Of a stretch of 46,885 bases of DNA, positions 1,160 to 5,204 are shown in pieces. A program made the position numbers and the translations under genes. The notes below the pieces were generated by a model. It saw only the letters and a list, made by a program, of their open reading frames with translations, had not been told where the DNA came from and did no database searches. Location: positions 1 through 46,885 of IMG/VR virus record IMGVR_UViG_3300028920_000011, one strand, 5' to 3'. Origin of the DNA: a virus. How positions within the stretch are numbered: the stretch's first letter is position 1; each line of letters starts with the position of its first letter.

Positions 1160-1733
1160 CGCTCCGCCCTCCCGTCTTCAGCCGCTCAACCTCGGCGCGC
1201 GCCTCGTCTAGCTGTCGTACCAACGGATGGTCTTCCCATACCGCCGTTGGATCATCCGCAATGCTCGCTATCGAATTCGCGTGTTTCTTGCAGGAAGTTG
1301 CCCCGCACCCGTTACATTGATCTTCGGTTTCACATATGCAGAGGATGCACCCGCACGGCTGTATTCTCTTTAGGTGTGGCTCACGCCACTCCTTCAGCCG
1401 CTCGACCTCTTCGCGAAGGGCGTCGCGTTCGTCCTCCAATTCTCGAAACAGCTTGCGTTGTAACGCAAGCGCCTGCCTAGCGCTGTGGGCTCCAAGGATC
1501 TCTTCCCACCACGGCTTGTCACCTGGTGCGGCGTCTTGTTCCGCCTTCAGCCGCTCAACCTTGGCGCGGAGGGCGTCGTTGTCCGCCACCAGCGCGTCGA
1601 GCACGGCGGGGAGCGTGGCTACATGCGGGTGTAACTCCTTGCCGGTGGGGCGCTGGCTTTCAATAACACCCCATACTGTCGGCCACGTGTCCCGCACCCA
1701 CTCAAGCGCCTGCTCACCGGTCATCTCGCCCAT
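1149..1733 (-). CDS. Hypothetical coiled-coil protein with a central Cys cluster.
   Basis: Track ORF. It has three (K/E)VERLK heptad-like segments and CGCILCICETEDQCNGCGATSCKKH. It is tightly packed after the resolvase gene. Confidence 0.65.
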   Translation of the reverse strand: MGEMTGEQALEWVRDTWPTVWGVIESQRPTGKELHPHVATLPAVLDALVADNDALRAKVERLKAEQDAAPGDKPWWEEILGAHSARQALALQRKLFRELEDERDALREEVERLKEWREPHLKRIQPCGCILCICETEDQCNGCGATSCKKHANSIASIADDPTAVWEDHPLVRQLDEARAEVERLKTGGRSDVQ

Positions 1734-1734
1734 G

Positions 1735-2241
1735 TCACTGTCCTCCGTAGCGCCGTTTGCAGTAGGTCAGTATCGCCACCGCGTCGGCGTTGTTTAGCGT
1801 CAGTTTCAAATCTGGATACAGGTCCTGCATCTTGTCGCGTATCGCGTGTTTGCGCGACTTGATGCTAGCCGACGATTGTCCTCTTGGTAGTTTGCCGCAT
1901 ACCGATTTCTGCCACACGCGCGGCATTACCTCGTCGATTGCGACTCCCAACGACACGAGGAAACCAATCAGTTCGCCCTTGTGCTGGCGCAGTTTCAGTA
2001 GCGCGCCCACACGCTTAAGGTCCATCGCTGGATTTTGCGACGGGAAGAAGTTCCCAACCTTCTCGATGCAACACACCCAATGCAGCCCGGGGTATTCCCC
2101 GCGGATACTGTCTAGCAACTCGTATTGCTCGCGTTTGGTTGGCGGCATACTGAATACCGATGTGTCGTGTTCGCACGTGGCGCACGCAATCGCGCCCTGT
2201 TTGCCGGGGTCAATGCCTATCCACGCCCAATCCGCTACCAT
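1735..2241 (-). CDS. RuvC-like Holliday junction resolvase.
   Basis: N-terminal WIGIDPGKQGA (RuvC catalytic Asp motif), an internal CCIEKV acidic residue, and C-terminal NNADAVAI. Size is 168 aa. Confidence 0.7.
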   Translation of the reverse strand: MVADWAWIGIDPGKQGAIACATCEHDTSVFSMPPTKREQYELLDSIRGEYPGLHWVCCIEKVGNFFPSQNPAMDLKRVGALLKLRQHKGELIGFLVSLGVAIDEVMPRVWQKSVCGKLPRGQSSASIKSRKHAIRDKMQDLYPDLKLTLNNADAVAILTYCKRRYGGQ

Positions 2242-2546
2242 CGTTCTGTCCCGTCGTCATCCCAGCCCGTGGGCGCGCAGTAATCCAGTTTGTCGCTGAA
2301 CGTGTTTATCTTGCGCGCATGGTTGCGCCCATCATGGAGGCCAAGTTCATAGGCGCGTTGCCGAGTGGCCAGGACTTCTTGCGAAATGGATTGTTTTAGC
2401 TGATTGGCGACAACTCTTGCGACATCCCCGCCAAATGAATCAGAGAACAGCGTTACCCGGGCCATGCCGTCCATTGTCCTGCAAAGAATCTCCACACAGA
2501 AACGTCTTTTGTCTTCAGACACGCCAACCTTTACAATTGCGCTCAT
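2235..2546 (-). CDS. Hypothetical protein (103 aa).
   Basis: Track ORF on the same strand, with a 7-nt overlap onto the resolvase gene. Confidence 0.55.
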   Translation of the reverse strand: MSAIVKVGVSEDKRRFCVEILCRTMDGMARVTLFSDSFGGDVARVVANQLKQSISQEVLATRQRAYELGLHDGRNHARKINTFSDKLDYCAPTGWDDDGTERW

Positions 2547-2740
2547 CGTTCACCTCTTCGCCCATTGCACGATCGTCATGGTGCGCCACCTATGGTTGAC
2601 ATACACCCGCACGTATCGGGCTTTCTGTTTCACCGTAGTTGTTCTCAGCATCGCTCATCCCTCCATTCCGCGCGGCCCCACCCTGCTCCTTACCCGCGCA
2701 TGCCTCGGAGAACGCTCGCTGTGGGCGAGCAAAAATTACT

Positions 2741-2884
2741 TGGCGGCGGCGGGAATCGAACCCGCGTCAGTCCCCTTGGGGGACTCCAGCCCATGGCGCC
2801 AGCGAGATCACTGCTGACACACAAAGAGGGCCTACACGACTACGTGCGCATCGTGAGAGCGTGAACCAACCACGCCGCGCCGCC
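2741..2884 (-). ncRNA. tRNA-like RNA: acceptor stem, D-arm and T-arm, with a 72-nt insertion between the D-arm and an anticodon-like hairpin.
   Basis: Minus-strand reading, 5' part: GGCGGCG-CG-GCGT-GGTTGGTTC-ACGC. 3' part: AGTCC-CCCAAGG-GGACT-GAC-GCGGG-TTCGATT-CCCGC-CGCCGCC-A. There are seven Watson-Crick acceptor pairs, a canonical TTCGATT T-loop and a GG-containing D-loop. CCA is not encoded, and loop position 33 is C rather than U. Confidence 0.5.
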
Positions 2885-3038
2885 CAAAACACGTGCCCCG
2901 TGGCCGGGTTGGTTACCGGCAACCCATTTTCTCTGCCAGTCACTCATACCATGCGCGCTGGTGGCCGGGCGGGCTGATGGCGGCGCGAAGCCCGCGTGTT
3001 CGTCCACGCTGCACGGGGCACAAAACCTGATTCAACTG

Positions 3039-3362
3039 TTACTTCAGGTGCGCGCAACGCCTCGCCACGCGCACCCACTTCAGGCCGTCCCCGAAGTGCG
3101 CTACGTCGCTGTACACGTCTGCGTCCGGGTTGTTGCATTCATCAATCCGATCAAACAGGTGGCCTTTGATGTGCATGACGATTCCCCACACGCCCATACC
3201 TCCCTTGCCGTATTTGACGGTAAGCACCGTGCCATCGCTACATGCGACGAGTAGGCCCTCGGTTACGTGTTCGTCGTCGGTGCCGTAGCACCCGTACTCT
3301 TCTCCCACGTCGCCTTCAATCTCCAGCAGATCGTCGGACGCTCCATAGATCTTCGTCGCCAT
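3039..3362 (-). CDS. Hypothetical protein (107 aa).
   Basis: Track ORF with an AAGAGGAAA RBS upstream of ATG 3362. Confidence 0.6.
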   Translation of the reverse strand: MATKIYGASDDLLEIEGDVGEEYGCYGTDDEHVTEGLLVACSDGTVLTVKYGKGGMGVWGIVMHIKGHLFDRIDECNNPDADVYSDVAHFGDGLKWVRVARRCAHLK

Positions 3363-3430
3363 GATGTATTTCCTCTTTTCTTCTGCATCCTTGGTTTGTA
3401 TCGGGCGGAAATGGGCCGCGCGACCTCTTT

Positions 3431-4336
3431 TTACGTTTTTTCGAGCACCTCCGCTAGTTTTCGTAAATCATCAACACTCCATTGGTCAATGGTGCCTTCA
3501 CAAATCTTGCCGGCGATACCGTCGAACGTGTCGCCATCGATGCCCAGCTCCATCACCAGTTTGGTGATTTGCCGATTCAACTCCTTCACGTCCTCGGCTC
3601 TTTCGGGTGGCGCATCATCGCGCGGCGCCGGCGGTTCGTCTGCCGTCACGTCGTCCACGGTGGGCGGATGGAATTCCGCCGGGTCAATGTCGGCAATCGT
3701 GCGGGCGCTACGGAACGTCTCGTCAATCGATGTGCGGCCGTCCTTGATGGACTGCACGATGCCCACCAGGTGTTCGACGTGTTGTGGCGTGATGTCCTCA
3801 ATCGTGGCAATGCGCAGATAGCGGAACACCTCGTTATTGCTCACGCCGTGCTGTTCCCAATAGCCAAGACACTTTATGGCCCGCTCGCTGTCTTCTGGTG
3901 GCGATTGCCGTGTCAGGTGTGGTGCATCGAAGTCCTCTATGTCCTCACCGGTCGGCAGGCAAAACATTTTGAGCAACGCCATCTTGGTTGCGTAGCTCAT
4001 CGCCTTGCCAGGGCCCTTGTCCTGGCTGTCTACACCAAACCCAAGAGTATACACCGCCGCGGAATCCTCTGGACATTGCGCGTTAACCACCCGCACTTCC
4101 ACCAGCATCCACGTCCGGTTTCCGTCCTGCCCGTGTTCGTGGATGCTGGGCACAATGACTAGTCCATTCTCGACGATGGCGGCGCGGAGTGCGCCAACCA
4201 CCGCATCGTGTGACGCAAACCGATAACCCCCAATGGCCTGCGGCGCGGCCTTGTCTTTCAGCACGCCGGTCACGCTCGCCATAACAGCCAGCATTCGCTC
4301 GTACACATTGGGGTGTGTTACTGTTGTGTTATCCAT
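3431..4336 (-). CDS. erf: ERF-family single-strand annealing protein.
   Basis: IGGYRFASHDAVVGALRAAIVENGL and GPGKAMSYATKMALLKMFCLPTGEDIEDFD match ERF hallmark segments. The acidic C-terminal tail and the adjacent exonuclease partner also fit. Confidence 0.75.
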   Translation of the reverse strand: MDNTTVTHPNVYERMLAVMASVTGVLKDKAAPQAIGGYRFASHDAVVGALRAAIVENGLVIVPSIHEHGQDGNRTWMLVEVRVVNAQCPEDSAAVYTLGFGVDSQDKGPGKAMSYATKMALLKMFCLPTGEDIEDFDAPHLTRQSPPEDSERAIKCLGYWEQHGVSNNEVFRYLRIATIEDITPQHVEHLVGIVQSIKDGRTSIDETFRSARTIADIDPAEFHPPTVDDVTADEPPAPRDDAPPERAEDVKELNRQITKLVMELGIDGDTFDGIAGKICEGTIDQWSVDDLRKLAEVLEKT

Positions 4337-5204
4337 CTTCGCCTCCCTTCCGCGTTCTCACTCGTCGCCCGTACGGACAGAACGGCGCCGCGCTGCAATA
4401 CCGCAGGCACCGCGTGCACTCGCCAGGCCGTTCCTCGATGTCGCAAGGAAAGCCCTTGAGTGATGCGACGGCCTCAGCGGCGTCCCGCGAGCCACACAAG
4501 CCACCCGGCAAGGCCCGCTTGTTGCCTCGCTTCTTCACGGCCCAGACGGTGGGTTTCTCCCACCGTTCCGCGGGCGTGCACACTGGGATTCCGTCGACGG
4601 GCACGTTGTCAGCGGCCTGGTGTAGATGCACCCGCTCGCGGATGAAGTCACCAATCCGCTCCAATGTCCAGACCTCGACAGGCACGACGTGTACCTGGCA
4701 GTCCGGATAGCTCCGGTCCGTTTCCGCCTTGCGCATGATCCAGTCACGCAGGATAGCGACGATCTGCAGTGCTTTCGGCGTGAAGCCGTGCTGCATGTAG
4801 AGCCAGCGGTACATGTTGAGTTGCGCCGCCCACTCAGGCTTGACGCCGGACAGGAACGCCCACACCGACGTGACCTTGTAATCCGTGAGGGTGTCGTCGG
4901 GCTCGAGCAGGTCGGGCTTGCCACTGATCGTCCAGCCGAACACCTCGGCAACAAGCCGCTCCTCGGAGAGCCGGTCGGTGTGGTCTTGCCGCTCGATGAT
5001 GGCGTGCACACTCTGGCCGAGCAGCGACCACACGCGGTCGCTCGCGTCCTCGACGATGTCACCAGCGTGGCGCTTCTCGATCTGCACCATGAGCGGCGGC
5101 TTGATGAGTTGCGTCACGCTGATATCCCCCACGCGGCGGTAGGGGTCCCTGGTGAGAGCCTCATAGATGGGCTGGGGCAGTCCGTGTTTGTTGGTGTACG
5201 TCAT
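4329..5204 (-). CDS. PD-(D/E)XK (Cas4/RecB-like) recombination exonuclease.
   Basis: GKPDLL...TLTDYKVTS (D...D-x-K nuclease core) and a C-terminal Cys cluster [14 protein letters not shown]. There is an 8-nt overlap with erf. Confidence 0.7.

What the first reader, a model, noticed from the sequence alone, without database searches (positions are those of the whole stretch)
2741..2884. 144-nt tRNA-like RNA: perfect acceptor, D-arm and T-arm separated by a 72-nt insertion
The element is read on the minus strand and lies in a gap of about 490 nt (2547..3038) in an otherwise tightly packed operon.

**tRNA-like parts**
- **5' part (27 nt):** GGCGGCG CG GCGT-GGTTGGTTC-ACGC T. It looks like positions 1-26 of a tRNA.
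- **3' part (45 nt):** AGTCC-CCCAAGG-GGACT GAC GCGGG-TTCGATT-CCCGC CGCCGCC A. It looks like an anticodon arm (CAA), a T-arm, the acceptor 3' strand and a discriminator.
- **Acceptor stem:** the two acceptor strands pair with 7 of 7 Watson-Crick pairs.

**Ways it departs from a normal tRNA**
- **Insertion:** 72 nt lie between the D-arm and the anticodon-like hairpin. The insertion contains its own CACGA...TCGTG hairpin.
- **Loop and variable region:** loop position 33 is C rather than U, and the variable region is only 3 nt.
- **Neighbouring structure:** the flanking untranslated region carries further long-range complementarity (GTGCCCCGTG at 2893 and CACGGGGCAC at 3011).

**Candidate identities**
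- an intron- or insertion-containing tRNA
- a Y-RNA/YrlA-type tRNA mimic
- a tRNA-like decoy for host tRNA-targeting enzymes
Basis: partly seen in the sequence, partly recalled or inferred. Interest (0 to 1): 0.6.

Follow-up and report, generated by a model that had tools for sequence, protein, structure and literature searches.

The report
Phage tRNA-shaped RNA without anticodon
An uncultured marine-sediment phage carries a 144-base gene for an RNA that keeps the two ends, the D arm and the T arm of a tRNA but has three extra hairpins where the codon-reading arm should be. An unrelated phage carries a second copy that preserves the same fold, so it is a real RNA of unknown function and not a broken tRNA.

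Summary
On the minus strand, 2884..2741 holds a 7/7 Watson-Crick acceptor stem, a D arm, a canonical T arm (UUCGAUU) and discriminator A, with about 90 nt of hairpins in between.

It lies in a 492-nt gene-free gap of the leftward early operon of a complete 46.9-kb phage genome. ARAGORN and Rfam's curated thresholds call nothing.

One homologue was found: a 141-nt element on a 4.5-kb viral contig (L243:955-1095), scoring 51.6 bits with a model built from the window copy alone.
- The two fold independently into the same six-way junction.
- 18 base pairs differ on both sides, spread over five helices.
- The D loop, the GAC linker and the T arm are identical.

This argues against chance, a decaying pseudogene and an attP scar. 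The genome also has no integrase, and no host tRNA shares the 3' 45 nt.

It is not a decoding tRNA, because no hairpin has a canonical anticodon loop. It is not a tmRNA: C3-G70 replaces G3.U70 and there is no tag frame. It is not a YrlA RNA.

The closest known RNAs are phage T5 RNA1 and T4 rnaC, tRNA-like stable RNAs of unknown function. Earlier reports of this scan describe similar oversized tRNA-shaped phage RNAs, but not this family.

Function is inferred only. The most likely role is a tRNA mimic, cut out by host tRNA-processing enzymes, that engages a host tRNA-binding factor.

The parts
2741..2884 (-). Whole 144-nt tRNA-shaped RNA gene. RNA nucleotide n corresponds to window coordinate 2885 - n.
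   Evidence: Sequence. The minimum-free-energy fold equals the centroid, -74.8 kcal/mol, z = -3.5. The homologue L243:955-1095 scores 51.6 bits.
2878..2884 (-). Acceptor stem, 5' strand: GGCGGCG (nt 1-7).
   Evidence: It pairs 7/7 Watson-Crick with 2742-2748. Five of the seven pairs differ on both sides in the L243 copy.
2859..2875 (-). D arm: GCGU-GGUUGGUUC-ACGC (nt 10-26). It can be extended to 7 bp with a UUGGU loop.
   Evidence: The loop is identical in L243. Two stem pairs differ on both sides.
2832..2857 (-). Hairpin A (nt 28-53): a bulged stem capped by a GCAC tetraloop. It follows the D arm directly, in the position of an anticodon arm.
   Evidence: Fold. L243 has the same kind of hairpin with a GAAC tetraloop. 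Six pairs differ on both sides.
2789..2831 (-). Hairpin B (nt 54-96): a long irregular hairpin with a UGAU loop.
   Evidence: z = -2.7 when folded alone. L243 has a long hairpin at the same place, but its details differ.
2769..2785 (-). Hairpin C (nt 100-116): AGUCC-CCCAAGG-GGACU, or 7 bp with a CAA triloop.
   Evidence: z = -2.4. In L243 the stem covaries (three pairs differ on both sides) and the loop again holds CAA, as UUCAAUG.
2766..2768 (-). GAC linker before the T arm.
   Evidence: Identical in both copies.
2749..2765 (-). T arm: GCGGG-UUCGAUU-CCCGC.
   Evidence: Identical in L243.
2741..2748 (-). Acceptor stem 3' strand CGCCGCC plus discriminator A. No CCA is encoded.
2893..3020 (-). 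Upstream structure closed by the 10-bp stem GUGCCCCGUG/CACGGGGCAC. It ends 8 nt before the RNA's 5' end and is followed by GUGUUUUG. Its role is uncertain.
   Evidence: The stem is present, but z = -0.93.
2714..2730 (-). Small hairpin GCUCGC-CCACA-GCGAGC, 10 nt after the RNA's 3' end and preceded by AAUUUUU. It is not a consensus terminator.

Best explanation
2884..2741 (minus strand) is a gene for a non-decoding, tRNA-shaped RNA. It belongs to a small family, so far two members, carried in the early operons of otherwise unrelated phages.

Shown:
- The RNA folds into a six-way junction: acceptor stem, D arm, hairpins A, B and C, and T arm.
- The tRNA 'top half' is intact. This means the acceptor/T-arm minihelix and the elbow nucleotides G18, G19, U54-U55-C56 and A58.
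- The helices are maintained by compensatory changes between the two copies.

Inferred:
- It is transcribed as part of the leftward early transcript, because no promoter of its own was found.
- Host RNase P cuts it out at its 5' end, and host 3'-processing enzymes (RNase Z or exonucleases) trim after the discriminator.
- The host CCA-adding enzyme adds CCA.
- The RNA accumulates as a stable small RNA, as T5 RNA1 and T4 rnaC do.
- Lacking an anticodon loop, it cannot read codons.
- Its most likely role is a tRNA mimic that occupies a host factor recognising the acceptor/T-arm/elbow part of tRNA. Candidates are a tRNA-targeting defence nuclease, an aminoacyl-tRNA synthetase, EF-Tu or SmpB.
- As a by-product, its excision splits the early mRNA and leaves the upstream message ending in a stable stem.

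The target and the benefit to the phage are not known.
For: Structure and significance:
- The fold has z = -3.5.
- The composite tRNA signature occurs in 4 of 300 shuffles.
- Hairpins B and C are individually stable.

Homologue:
- L243:955-1095 scores 51.6 bits, E about 2e-8, with a model built from the window sequence alone.
- The independent minimum-free-energy folds of the two RNAs give the same six-way junction.
- On their alignment, 93.5% of cells pair and 18 pairs differ on both sides: acceptor 5, D arm 2, hairpin A 6, hairpin B 2, hairpin C 3.
- Controls with the 3' partner slid by 1-3 columns give 1-4 such pairs.
- Overall sequence identity is only 55%, and the flanks are unrelated.

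Pattern of change:
- Every departure from tRNA consensus lies at an unpaired position: C8, G14, C21, C33 and the 3-nt variable region.
- None of the 21 tRNA-type base pairs is broken.
- Random decay would not give this pattern.

Not coding:
- No ORF overlapping the gap matches Pfam or PHROGs.

Context:
- Both copies lie in early operons beside recombination genes. The window has Erf and an exonuclease. L243 has an exonuclease and a Sak4-like protein.
- Both have U-rich 5' leaders and 3' trailers.
- In L243 a second oversized tRNA-like RNA follows after 10 nt, the spacing of genes in a tRNA cluster.

Precedent:
- T5 RNA1 is 144 nt and is annotated 'tRNA-like stable RNA with unknown functions'. 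T4 rnaC is 139 nt. Both have the same general build.
Against: - Only two members are known, and there is no expression data. No listed sequencing run holding the stretch is on record as RNA.
- The homologue was fished with a pattern that fixed the D loop and T loop. Those identical stretches are therefore not independent evidence. The covarying stems are independent.
- The alignment used for the pair counts was fitted to the model's structure, which favours that structure.
- Processing by RNase P, 3' trimming and CCA addition are inferred from tRNA likeness, not shown.
- The mimic role has no direct support. No partner gene is shared by the two loci.
- The acceptor identity differs between the copies: C3-G70 in the window, G3.U70 in L243. 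If the RNA is charged, the two are not charged alike.
Confidence: 0.55

Rival explanations
1. It is a miniature relative of tmRNA that keeps only the tRNA-like domain. It would bind SmpB and interfere with, or substitute for, the host's ribosome rescue.
For: - Rfam's tmRNA model is the only family that aligns both ends (23.2 bits).
- The 29 nt from GAC through the T arm and the acceptor 3' strand to the discriminator A equal the Cystobacter and Thermoleophilia tmRNA ends, apart from position 70.
- The 21-mer GACGCGGGTTCGATTCCCGCC is found in viral contigs mostly in tmRNAs and ssrA fragments.
- The L243 copy carries G3.U70 plus A73, the alanine identity that tmRNA uses.
- Phage RNAs that look like tmRNA cut down to its tRNA-like part exist: L036, L202, L210 and L222.
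Against: - The window copy has C3-G70, so AlaRS should not charge it.
- The score is below Rfam's gathering score, and Rfam reported nothing for the L243 copy at E <= 1.
- Both copies have a true D stem, which the mini-tmRNAs lack.
- Both lack the long-range P2 helix that the mini-tmRNAs have.
- The two copies share no reading frame or stop (read).
- The phage encodes no SmpB.
Confidence: 0.12
2. Its main role is in cis. The tRNA-like fold would be a processing signal ('punctuation') that makes RNase P and 3'-processing enzymes cut the early polycistronic mRNA. This would set the stability of the upstream and downstream messages, and the excised RNA itself would have no function.
For: - It lies inside an operon, with no promoter or consensus terminator of its own.
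- After 5' cleavage, the upstream message would end in a 10-bp-closed structure followed by GUGUUUUG.
- In most phages that share the upstream 107-aa gene, the next gene follows at once. The gap with the RNA is therefore an addition to the operon.
Against: - A processing signal needs only an acceptor/T-arm minihelix. That does not explain the conserved D arm, three conserved extra hairpins and the CAA loop.
- In L243 the RNA lies with a second tRNA-like RNA, after a promoter-like site that I read from the sequence and before a terminator-like hairpin. That looks like an RNA gene cluster.
Confidence: 0.12
3. It is a working decoding tRNA. Either it reads UUG (Leu) through the CAA loop of hairpin C while keeping the insertion, or an intron is removed to give a tRNA of 72-95 nt.
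For: - CAA sits at the centre of the hairpin C loop in both copies.
- A73 fits bacterial leucine identity (own knowledge).
- UUG makes up 24% of leucine codons in 19 phage genes.
- ARAGORN's intron mode returns a 95-nt tRNA.
- One relative of the upstream gene has an ordinary tRNA-Gln at the same spot (L015).
Against: - Neither loop is canonical. The window has C33. L243 has U37. Both can close to 3-5-nt loops.
- A scan of the insert finds no 5-bp stem with a 7-nt loop that has both U33 and R37.
- The variable region is 3 nt, and U8, A14 and A21 are all replaced.
- The insert matches no intron family in Rfam.
- The ARAGORN solution needs a C.A mismatch and an intron between stem and loop.
- The L243 copy would be charged with alanine through G3.U70, which does not fit a leucine anticodon.
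Confidence: 0.06
4. It has no function. It would be a tRNA gene recently broken by an insertion, or a recombination scar such as an attP-type copy of a host tRNA or tmRNA end.
For: - The last 25 nt match ten bacterial loci exactly. They look like att-type remnants of the tmRNA 3' end, mostly in Myxococcota.
- No close relative of this phage is available to show conservation within the lineage.
Against: - A second copy in an unrelated phage keeps every helix through compensatory changes.
- Both halves of the tRNA frame are present.
- The genome has no tyrosine or serine recombinase.
- None of the ten bacterial loci shares the 20 nt upstream of the T arm.
- All stems are intact, although several consensus loop positions have changed.
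Confidence: 0.07

Closest known systems
Bacteriophage T5 RNA1 (AY543070.1, 30501-30644; annotated 'tRNA-like stable RNA with unknown functions')
   Same: - It is also annotated at 144 nt.
- It has an acceptor stem, a D arm and a canonical T arm.
- The anticodon arm is replaced by a long hairpin, and a further hairpin lies just before the T arm.
- It is phage-encoded and its function is unknown.
   Different: - There is no detectable sequence relation. Model R1 gave no hit on the T5 locus at E <= 1.
- T5 RNA1 has two hairpins between the D and T arms; this RNA has three.
- T5 RNA1 has a leucine-type D arm.
- T5 RNA1 lies inside a large tRNA gene cluster. This phage has no tRNA gene at all.
Bacteriophage T4 species 1 RNA (rnaC; NC_000866.4, 70908-71046)
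   Same: It is a 139-nt stable phage RNA with a canonical T arm and a terminal stem. Long hairpins take the place of the other arms, and its function is unknown.
   Different: - It has no D arm.
- Its architecture differs.
- It lies at the end of the T4 tRNA cluster.
- No sequence relation was seen.
tmRNA (SsrA, Rfam RF00023) and phage RNAs that look like tmRNA cut down to its tRNA-like part
   Same: - The 5' and 3' ends form the acceptor stem, and the T arm is on the 3' side.
- The GAC and T-arm sequence are the same.
- An insert takes the place of the anticodon arm.
- The L243 copy has G3.U70 and A73.
   Different: - The window copy has C3-G70.
- It has a true D stem.
- It has no P2 helix, no pseudoknots and no conserved tag frame.
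- It scores 23.2 bits against a gathering score of 47.
YrlA / bacterial Y RNA (Rfam RF02553)
   Same: It is a non-decoding RNA of about 100-150 nt with a tRNA-like module. Such RNAs are sometimes phage-borne: a YrlA-like hit was seen in L004.
   Different: - In YrlA the RNA ends form the Ro-binding stem and the acceptor-like stem is closed by a loop (own knowledge). Here the ends form the acceptor stem.
- There is no Rfam hit at E <= 10.
- There is no Ro/TROVE gene.

Membership tests
tRNA (Rfam RF00005 / ARAGORN) | 7-bp acceptor stem, 5-bp T stem with a T-loop of the UUCRANY type, and a D arm with G18 G19 | tested here: met
   Read from the sequence. Also present in the fold.
tRNA (Rfam RF00005 / ARAGORN) | Anticodon arm: 5-bp stem and 7-nt loop with U33 and a purine at 37, following the D arm after one nucleotide | tested here: not met
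   No such hairpin exists in nt 20-125. Hairpin C has C33 and lies 72 nt after the D arm.
tRNA (Rfam RF00005 / ARAGORN) | Detected by standard tools at curated thresholds | tested here: not met
   ARAGORN finds 0 genes. Rfam at gathering thresholds gives 0 hits.
tmRNA (RF00023) | G3.U70 pair with A73 (alanine identity) | tested here: not met
   The window copy has C3-G70. The L243 copy does have G3.U70.
tmRNA (RF00023) | Resume codon, tag reading frame and stop | tested here: not met
   ARAGORN -m finds none, and its relaxed mode gives only a spurious permuted call. The two copies share no frame (read).
tmRNA (RF00023) | Long-range helix P2 joining the tRNA-like domain to the rest; score at or above Rfam's gathering score | tested here: not met
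   The segments next to the D and T arms form local hairpins. The score is 23.2 bits against 47.
YrlA / Y RNA (RF02553) | Match to the covariance model; RNA ends form the Ro-binding stem; rsr (Ro, TROVE domain) gene nearby | tested here: not met
   No hit at E <= 10. The ends form the acceptor stem. PF05731 was not found in the genome.
tRNA with a group I intron | Group I intron core (about 200 nt or more, own knowledge) inserted in the anticodon loop | tested here: not met
   The insert is 72 nt (up to 92 nt, depending on the reading). It lies outside any anticodon loop and matches no Rfam intron family at E <= 10.
attP / tRNA-end integration scar | 3' part identical to a host tRNA or tmRNA gene, with an integrase in the element | tested here: not met
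   Only the last 25 nt match, and they match isolated fragments. No PF00589 or PF00239 gene was found. The 5' half of the frame is present.
Phage oversized tRNA-like stable RNAs (T5 RNA1, T4 rnaC) | Phage-encoded, about 120-145 nt, tRNA acceptor and T arm kept, anticodon arm replaced by other structure | tested here: met
Phage oversized tRNA-like stable RNAs (T5 RNA1, T4 rnaC) | Accumulates as a stable processed RNA in infected cells | not testable with these tools
   No listed run holding the stretch is on record as RNA.
Phage oversized tRNA-like stable RNAs (T5 RNA1, T4 rnaC) | Sequence homology to T5 RNA1 | tested here: not met
   R1 gave no hit on L234 at E <= 1.

The most novel reading that the evidence does not exclude
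The two RNAs would define a new class of mobile, six-way-junction tRNA mimic that moves between unrelated phages' early operons.

Its conserved parts are the elbow, the GAC-plus-T-arm module identical to tmRNA, and a CAA loop that can pair with the UUG(G) of its own D loop. Together they would form a switch, or a docking surface, for a specific host factor. That factor could be a tRNA-directed defence nuclease or SmpB.

The acceptor identity would be tuned per host: alanine-type in one copy and switched off in the other.
Probability: 0.15. Interest if true: 0.75.

Novelty: new variant of a known kind. Interest (0 to 1): 0.5.

Why it matters
Phage-encoded tRNA-shaped RNAs that cannot decode appear as stable RNAs in the T4 and T5 genome records, where their function is annotated as unknown or not given.

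This element adds a family with a different build, a six-way junction with three extra hairpins. It is found outside tRNA clusters, in the early operons of two unrelated uncultured phages, and one of those phages has no tRNA genes at all.

That points to a role separate from supplementing the tRNA supply. The family is a compact test case, about 140 nt with two natural variants that differ in the alanine identity pair. It could be used to ask what host factor such mimics engage.

If the target is a tRNA-directed defence enzyme or the ribosome-rescue system, these RNAs would be an RNA-based counter-defence. If it is only a processing signal, the finding is of annotation value only.

Tried and rejected
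Searches for relatives of the phage or the element:
- DNA searches of the phage and plasmid collections found no relative of the region. With the 144 nt alone, only T-arm-sized matches to ordinary tRNAs such as tRNA-Gly appeared.
- An exact 28-mer search in viral contigs gave 0 hits.
- Erf, RusA-like and DnaB proteins found no close relative in viral contigs. The best was 40% identity for DnaB, without the RNA.
- Eighty loci hold a homologue of the upstream 107-aa gene. None has this RNA. Most have no gap after the gene, and L015 has tRNA-Gln there.
- Whole records of ten of these phages were searched with model R2. The only hit was a 97-nt aberrant tRNA.
- The metagenome pattern (same acceptor and T arm) gave one chance hit, L231.
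- GACGCGGGTTCGATTCCCGCC in viral contigs returned tmRNAs, ssrA fragments and mini-tmRNAs, none a homologue.
- CTGAC plus the T arm returned ordinary tRNAs.

Host:
- The large terminase was not found in 401 Myxococcota genomes.
- The D-loop/T-loop pattern in the same genomes gave one unrelated oversized tRNA.
- The host remains unknown.

Other tests:
- Antisense role: no complementarity to the surrounding transcript beyond what shuffled sequences give, in either phage.
- The insert is not repeated elsewhere in the genome.
- Sequencing runs: no RNA holder is listed. The second marine-sediment run holds only short low-depth pieces of a relative, and none covers the element.
- Literature searches found nothing on this family or on the function of T5 RNA1 or T4 rnaC.

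Full report
**Where the window comes from**

The window is a complete viral record of 46,885 bp with direct terminal repeats. GC content is 57.9% and the terminal repeat is 63 bp. It was assembled from a marine sediment metagenome.

The leftward block, 8063 down to 1 on the minus strand, holds early genes:
- a ParB-like protein
- pentapeptide-repeat proteins
- an exonuclease (4329-5204)
- an Erf-type annealing protein (3431-4336)
- a conserved 107-aa protein (3039-3362, phrog_10666)
- a 103-aa ORF (2235-2546)
- a RusA-like resolvase (1735-2241)

The 492 nt between 3038 and 2547 hold no ORF with a Pfam or PHROG match on either strand.

**The observation**

- acceptor strands GGCGGCG and CGCCGCC, pairing 7/7 Watson-Crick
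- D arm GCGU-GGUUGGUUC-ACGC
- T arm GCGGG-UUCGAUU-CCCGC
- discriminator A, with no encoded CCA
- hairpin AGUCC-CCCAAGG-GGACU, 3 nt before the T arm
- 72 nt between the D arm and that hairpin

The 144-nt RNA folds into one dominant structure. Minimum-free-energy fold and centroid are the same, at -74.8 kcal/mol, with z = -3.5. It forms a six-way junction:
- acceptor stem
- D arm, which can extend to 7 bp with a UUGGU loop
- hairpin A, bulged, with a GCAC tetraloop
- hairpin B, long
- hairpin C
- T arm

Hairpins B and C are each more stable than shuffled sequence (z = -2.7 and -2.4).

A permissive version of the tRNA signature appears in 4 of 300 dinucleotide shuffles of the window.

Standard detection fails. 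ARAGORN finds nothing, and no Rfam family reaches its gathering score. In a sensitive scan of 2500-3100, the only family that aligns both ends is tmRNA. It scores 23.2 bits against a gathering score of 47, with E = 1.8e-7, and it skips 108 nt where the model has 326.

**The search for relatives**

The phage is isolated:
- There are no DNA matches in the phage or plasmid collections.
- Erf and the RusA-like protein have no close relatives in viral contigs, and the best DnaB match is 40% identical.

The upstream 107-aa protein is widespread, at about 60% identity. Eighty viral loci that encode it do not carry the RNA. In most of them the next gene follows directly, so the gap with the RNA is an addition in this phage. 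One of them (L015) has an ordinary tRNA-Gln at the same spot.

Patterns that fixed the acceptor or the T arm returned only three kinds of hit:
- tmRNAs
- ssrA-type att fragments
- ordinary tRNAs

It returned L243:955-1095, a 141-nt element on a 4.5-kb viral contig.

**The homologue**

A covariance model built from the window sequence alone scores L243:955-1095 at 51.6 bits, E about 2e-8. Everything else in about 1.5 Mb of fetched loci scores below 29 bits.

Folded on its own, the L243 RNA gives the same six-way junction, element for element (z = -3.0).

On the alignment of the two:
- 93.5% of cells pair.
- 18 pairs differ on both sides: acceptor 5 of 7, D stem 2, hairpin A 6, hairpin B 2, hairpin C 3.
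- Controls with the 3' partners slid by 1-3 columns give 1-4 such pairs.

Identical in both copies:
- the D loop
- the GAC linker
- the whole T arm
- the discriminator A
- C8
- a GNAC tetraloop on hairpin A
- CAA at the centre of the hairpin C loop

Overall identity is 55%, and the flanks share nothing.

Two caveats apply. The D loop and T loop were fixed by the search pattern, so their identity is not independent evidence. The alignment was also fitted to the model's structure. The compensatory changes in the acceptor, the D stem and hairpins A and C, and the agreement of the two independent folds, are not affected by the first caveat.

**What this excludes**

Chance and a decaying pseudogene do not fit helices kept by compensatory change. 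They also do not fit the pattern within the window copy. There, five consensus tRNA positions in unpaired regions have changed (C8, G14, C21, C33 and a 3-nt variable region), yet none of the 21 tRNA-type pairs is broken.

An attP scar is excluded on four grounds:
- The genome has no tyrosine or serine recombinase.
- Both halves of the tRNA frame are present.
- The exact 25-nt matches in representative bacterial genomes are isolated T-arm/acceptor fragments whose upstream sequence is unrelated.

A decoding tRNA is unlikely:
- The insert holds no 5-bp stem with a 7-nt loop that has both U33 and a purine at 37.
- Hairpin C has C33 in the window and U37 in L243, and in both it can close to a 3-5-nt loop.
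- The insert matches no intron family.
- ARAGORN's intron mode yields only a forced tRNA-Ala(GGC), with a C.A mismatch and an intron between stem and loop.
- UUG makes up 24% of leucine codons, so a CAA anticodon would not be useless. That is not evidence that it is used.

tmRNA membership fails:
- The window copy has C3-G70 in place of G3.U70.
- It has a true D stem.
- It lacks the P2 helix. The four phage mini-tmRNA-like RNAs met on the way (L036, L202, L210, L222) all have G3.U70, and a P2-type helix is clear in two of them, L202 and L210.
- The copies share no tag frame, and the phage has no SmpB gene.

The L243 copy does carry G3.U70 and A73, and the GAC-plus-T-arm sequence is the common tmRNA one. 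Descent from, or mimicry of, the tmRNA tRNA-like domain therefore stays open as a minority view.

YrlA is excluded by the model search, by topology and by the absence of a Ro gene.

An antisense role like that of the RNase P-processed immunity RNAs of P1 and P4 (own knowledge) finds no support. Complementarity to the surrounding transcripts does not exceed that of shuffled sequences.

**Context of the two copies**

Both lie in early operons beside recombination genes, but those genes are not homologous.

In L243 the order is:
- an HTH regulator
- a promoter-like site, which I read from the sequence
- the RNA
- 10 nt later, a second oversized tRNA-like RNA (135 nt, leucine-type D arm, Rfam tRNA 37 bits with a 79-nt insert)
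- a hairpin followed by six U
- a CsrA-like gene
- an exonuclease
- a Sak4-like protein

The window has no CsrA gene, and its 103-aa neighbour is unrelated to the L243 CsrA-like protein.

Both RNAs have U-rich leaders and trailers, as tRNA genes in clusters often do. No promoter-like or terminator-like site of its own was found on the minus strand in the window. The RNA is therefore probably cut out of the operon transcript.

**Most likely mechanism**

Shown: a conserved fold that keeps the tRNA top half and replaces the decoding arm.

Inferred: excision by RNase P and 3'-processing enzymes, CCA addition by the host enzyme (none is encoded), accumulation as a stable RNA, and action as a mimic that engages a factor recognising the acceptor/T-arm/elbow.

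The difference at pair 3-70 suggests that charging with a particular amino acid is not the conserved feature.

One detail may be worth testing. The CCAA/UCAA of the hairpin C loop is complementary to the UUGG of the RNA's own D loop. That loop normally docks on the T loop. This is my reading of the sequences, not a computed result.

**Comparison with known RNAs**

The nearest known objects are T5 RNA1 and T4 rnaC. T5 RNA1 is 144 nt and is annotated 'tRNA-like stable RNA with unknown functions'. T4 rnaC is covered.

They share size, the acceptor and T arm, and replacement of the anticodon arm. They differ from this RNA in four ways:
- sequence
- number of extra hairpins
- location: T5 RNA1 and T4 rnaC lie in tRNA clusters
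- tRNA content of the phage: this one has no tRNA genes

Earlier reports of this scan describe several other families of oversized tRNA-shaped phage RNAs. None matched this sequence.

I therefore class the element as a new variant of a known, still unexplained kind.

**Limits**
- Only two members are known.
- There is no expression evidence.
- The host is unknown. A Myxococcota host, suggested by the 25-nt matches, found no support.

Noticed in passing
L092-L111 (Archangium G003, Cystobacter G002, Corallococcus G001 genomes): - Myxobacterial genomes carry many scattered copies of the tmRNA 3' end (T arm plus acceptor, GGGTTCGATTCCCGCCGCC[T/G]CC). There are 20 in one Archangium genome and 7 in Cystobacter fuscus.
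- Only one of the 20 loci fetched lies in a tmRNA gene that ARAGORN calls (L104, Cystobacter).
- Several sit right after a protein gene and before a terminator.
- Some form same-strand pairs 15-50 kb apart.
- Some share a module of about 70 nt upstream.
- They look like att sites of many integrated elements, but they are spread over the whole chromosome.
   Followed up: partly
L243:1106-1240 and 1335-1703: A second oversized tRNA-like RNA follows the homologue after 10 nt. It is 135 nt, has the leucine-type D arm GUGGCGGAACUGGUAGACGC, and scores 37 bits on Rfam tRNA with a 79-nt insert. After it come a hairpin with six U and a phage CsrA-like regulator gene.
   Followed up: partly
L036/L037:1050-1155; L202:581-674; L210:1727-1848; L222 (minus strand; 4039-4178 counted on the reverse complement): These are phage RNAs of 94-140 nt with G3.U70 and a tmRNA-type 5' end and T arm, but far shorter than the full-size tmRNAs of about 320-420 nt seen. 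L202 and L210 also show a P2-type closing helix. L036 lies flush behind a tRNA-Pro and scores 38 bits on Rfam tmRNA.
   Followed up: partly
L004:4538-4667: A YrlA-like match (43.6 bits, below the gathering score of 69) lies directly before a tRNA-Tyr, on a 297-kb viral contig.
   Followed up: no
L244:143-273 (minus strand; Myxococcota genome G101): A 131-nt tRNA-shaped element has the same GGUUGGUUC D loop and a canonical-looking CAU anticodon arm. It carries an insert of about 55 nt between the anticodon arm and the T arm.
   Followed up: partly
L245:1501-1597: A 97-nt aberrant 'tRNA-Arg(ccg)' has the same GAC plus T arm and a GC-only acceptor. It lies in the phage of L003, which shares the 107-aa gene with the window.
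   Followed up: partly
window 2587-2655 (minus strand): A 22-codon ORF (MSDAENNYGETESPIRAGVCQP) preceded by GGAGGG lies in the gap downstream of the RNA. It may be a small gene (read).
   Followed up: no
window 1500-4500: A second marine-sediment run, from another study, holds short low-depth contigs that are 95-99% identical to parts of this region. A close relative of the phage therefore exists elsewhere, but none of its pieces covers the RNA.
   Followed up: partly
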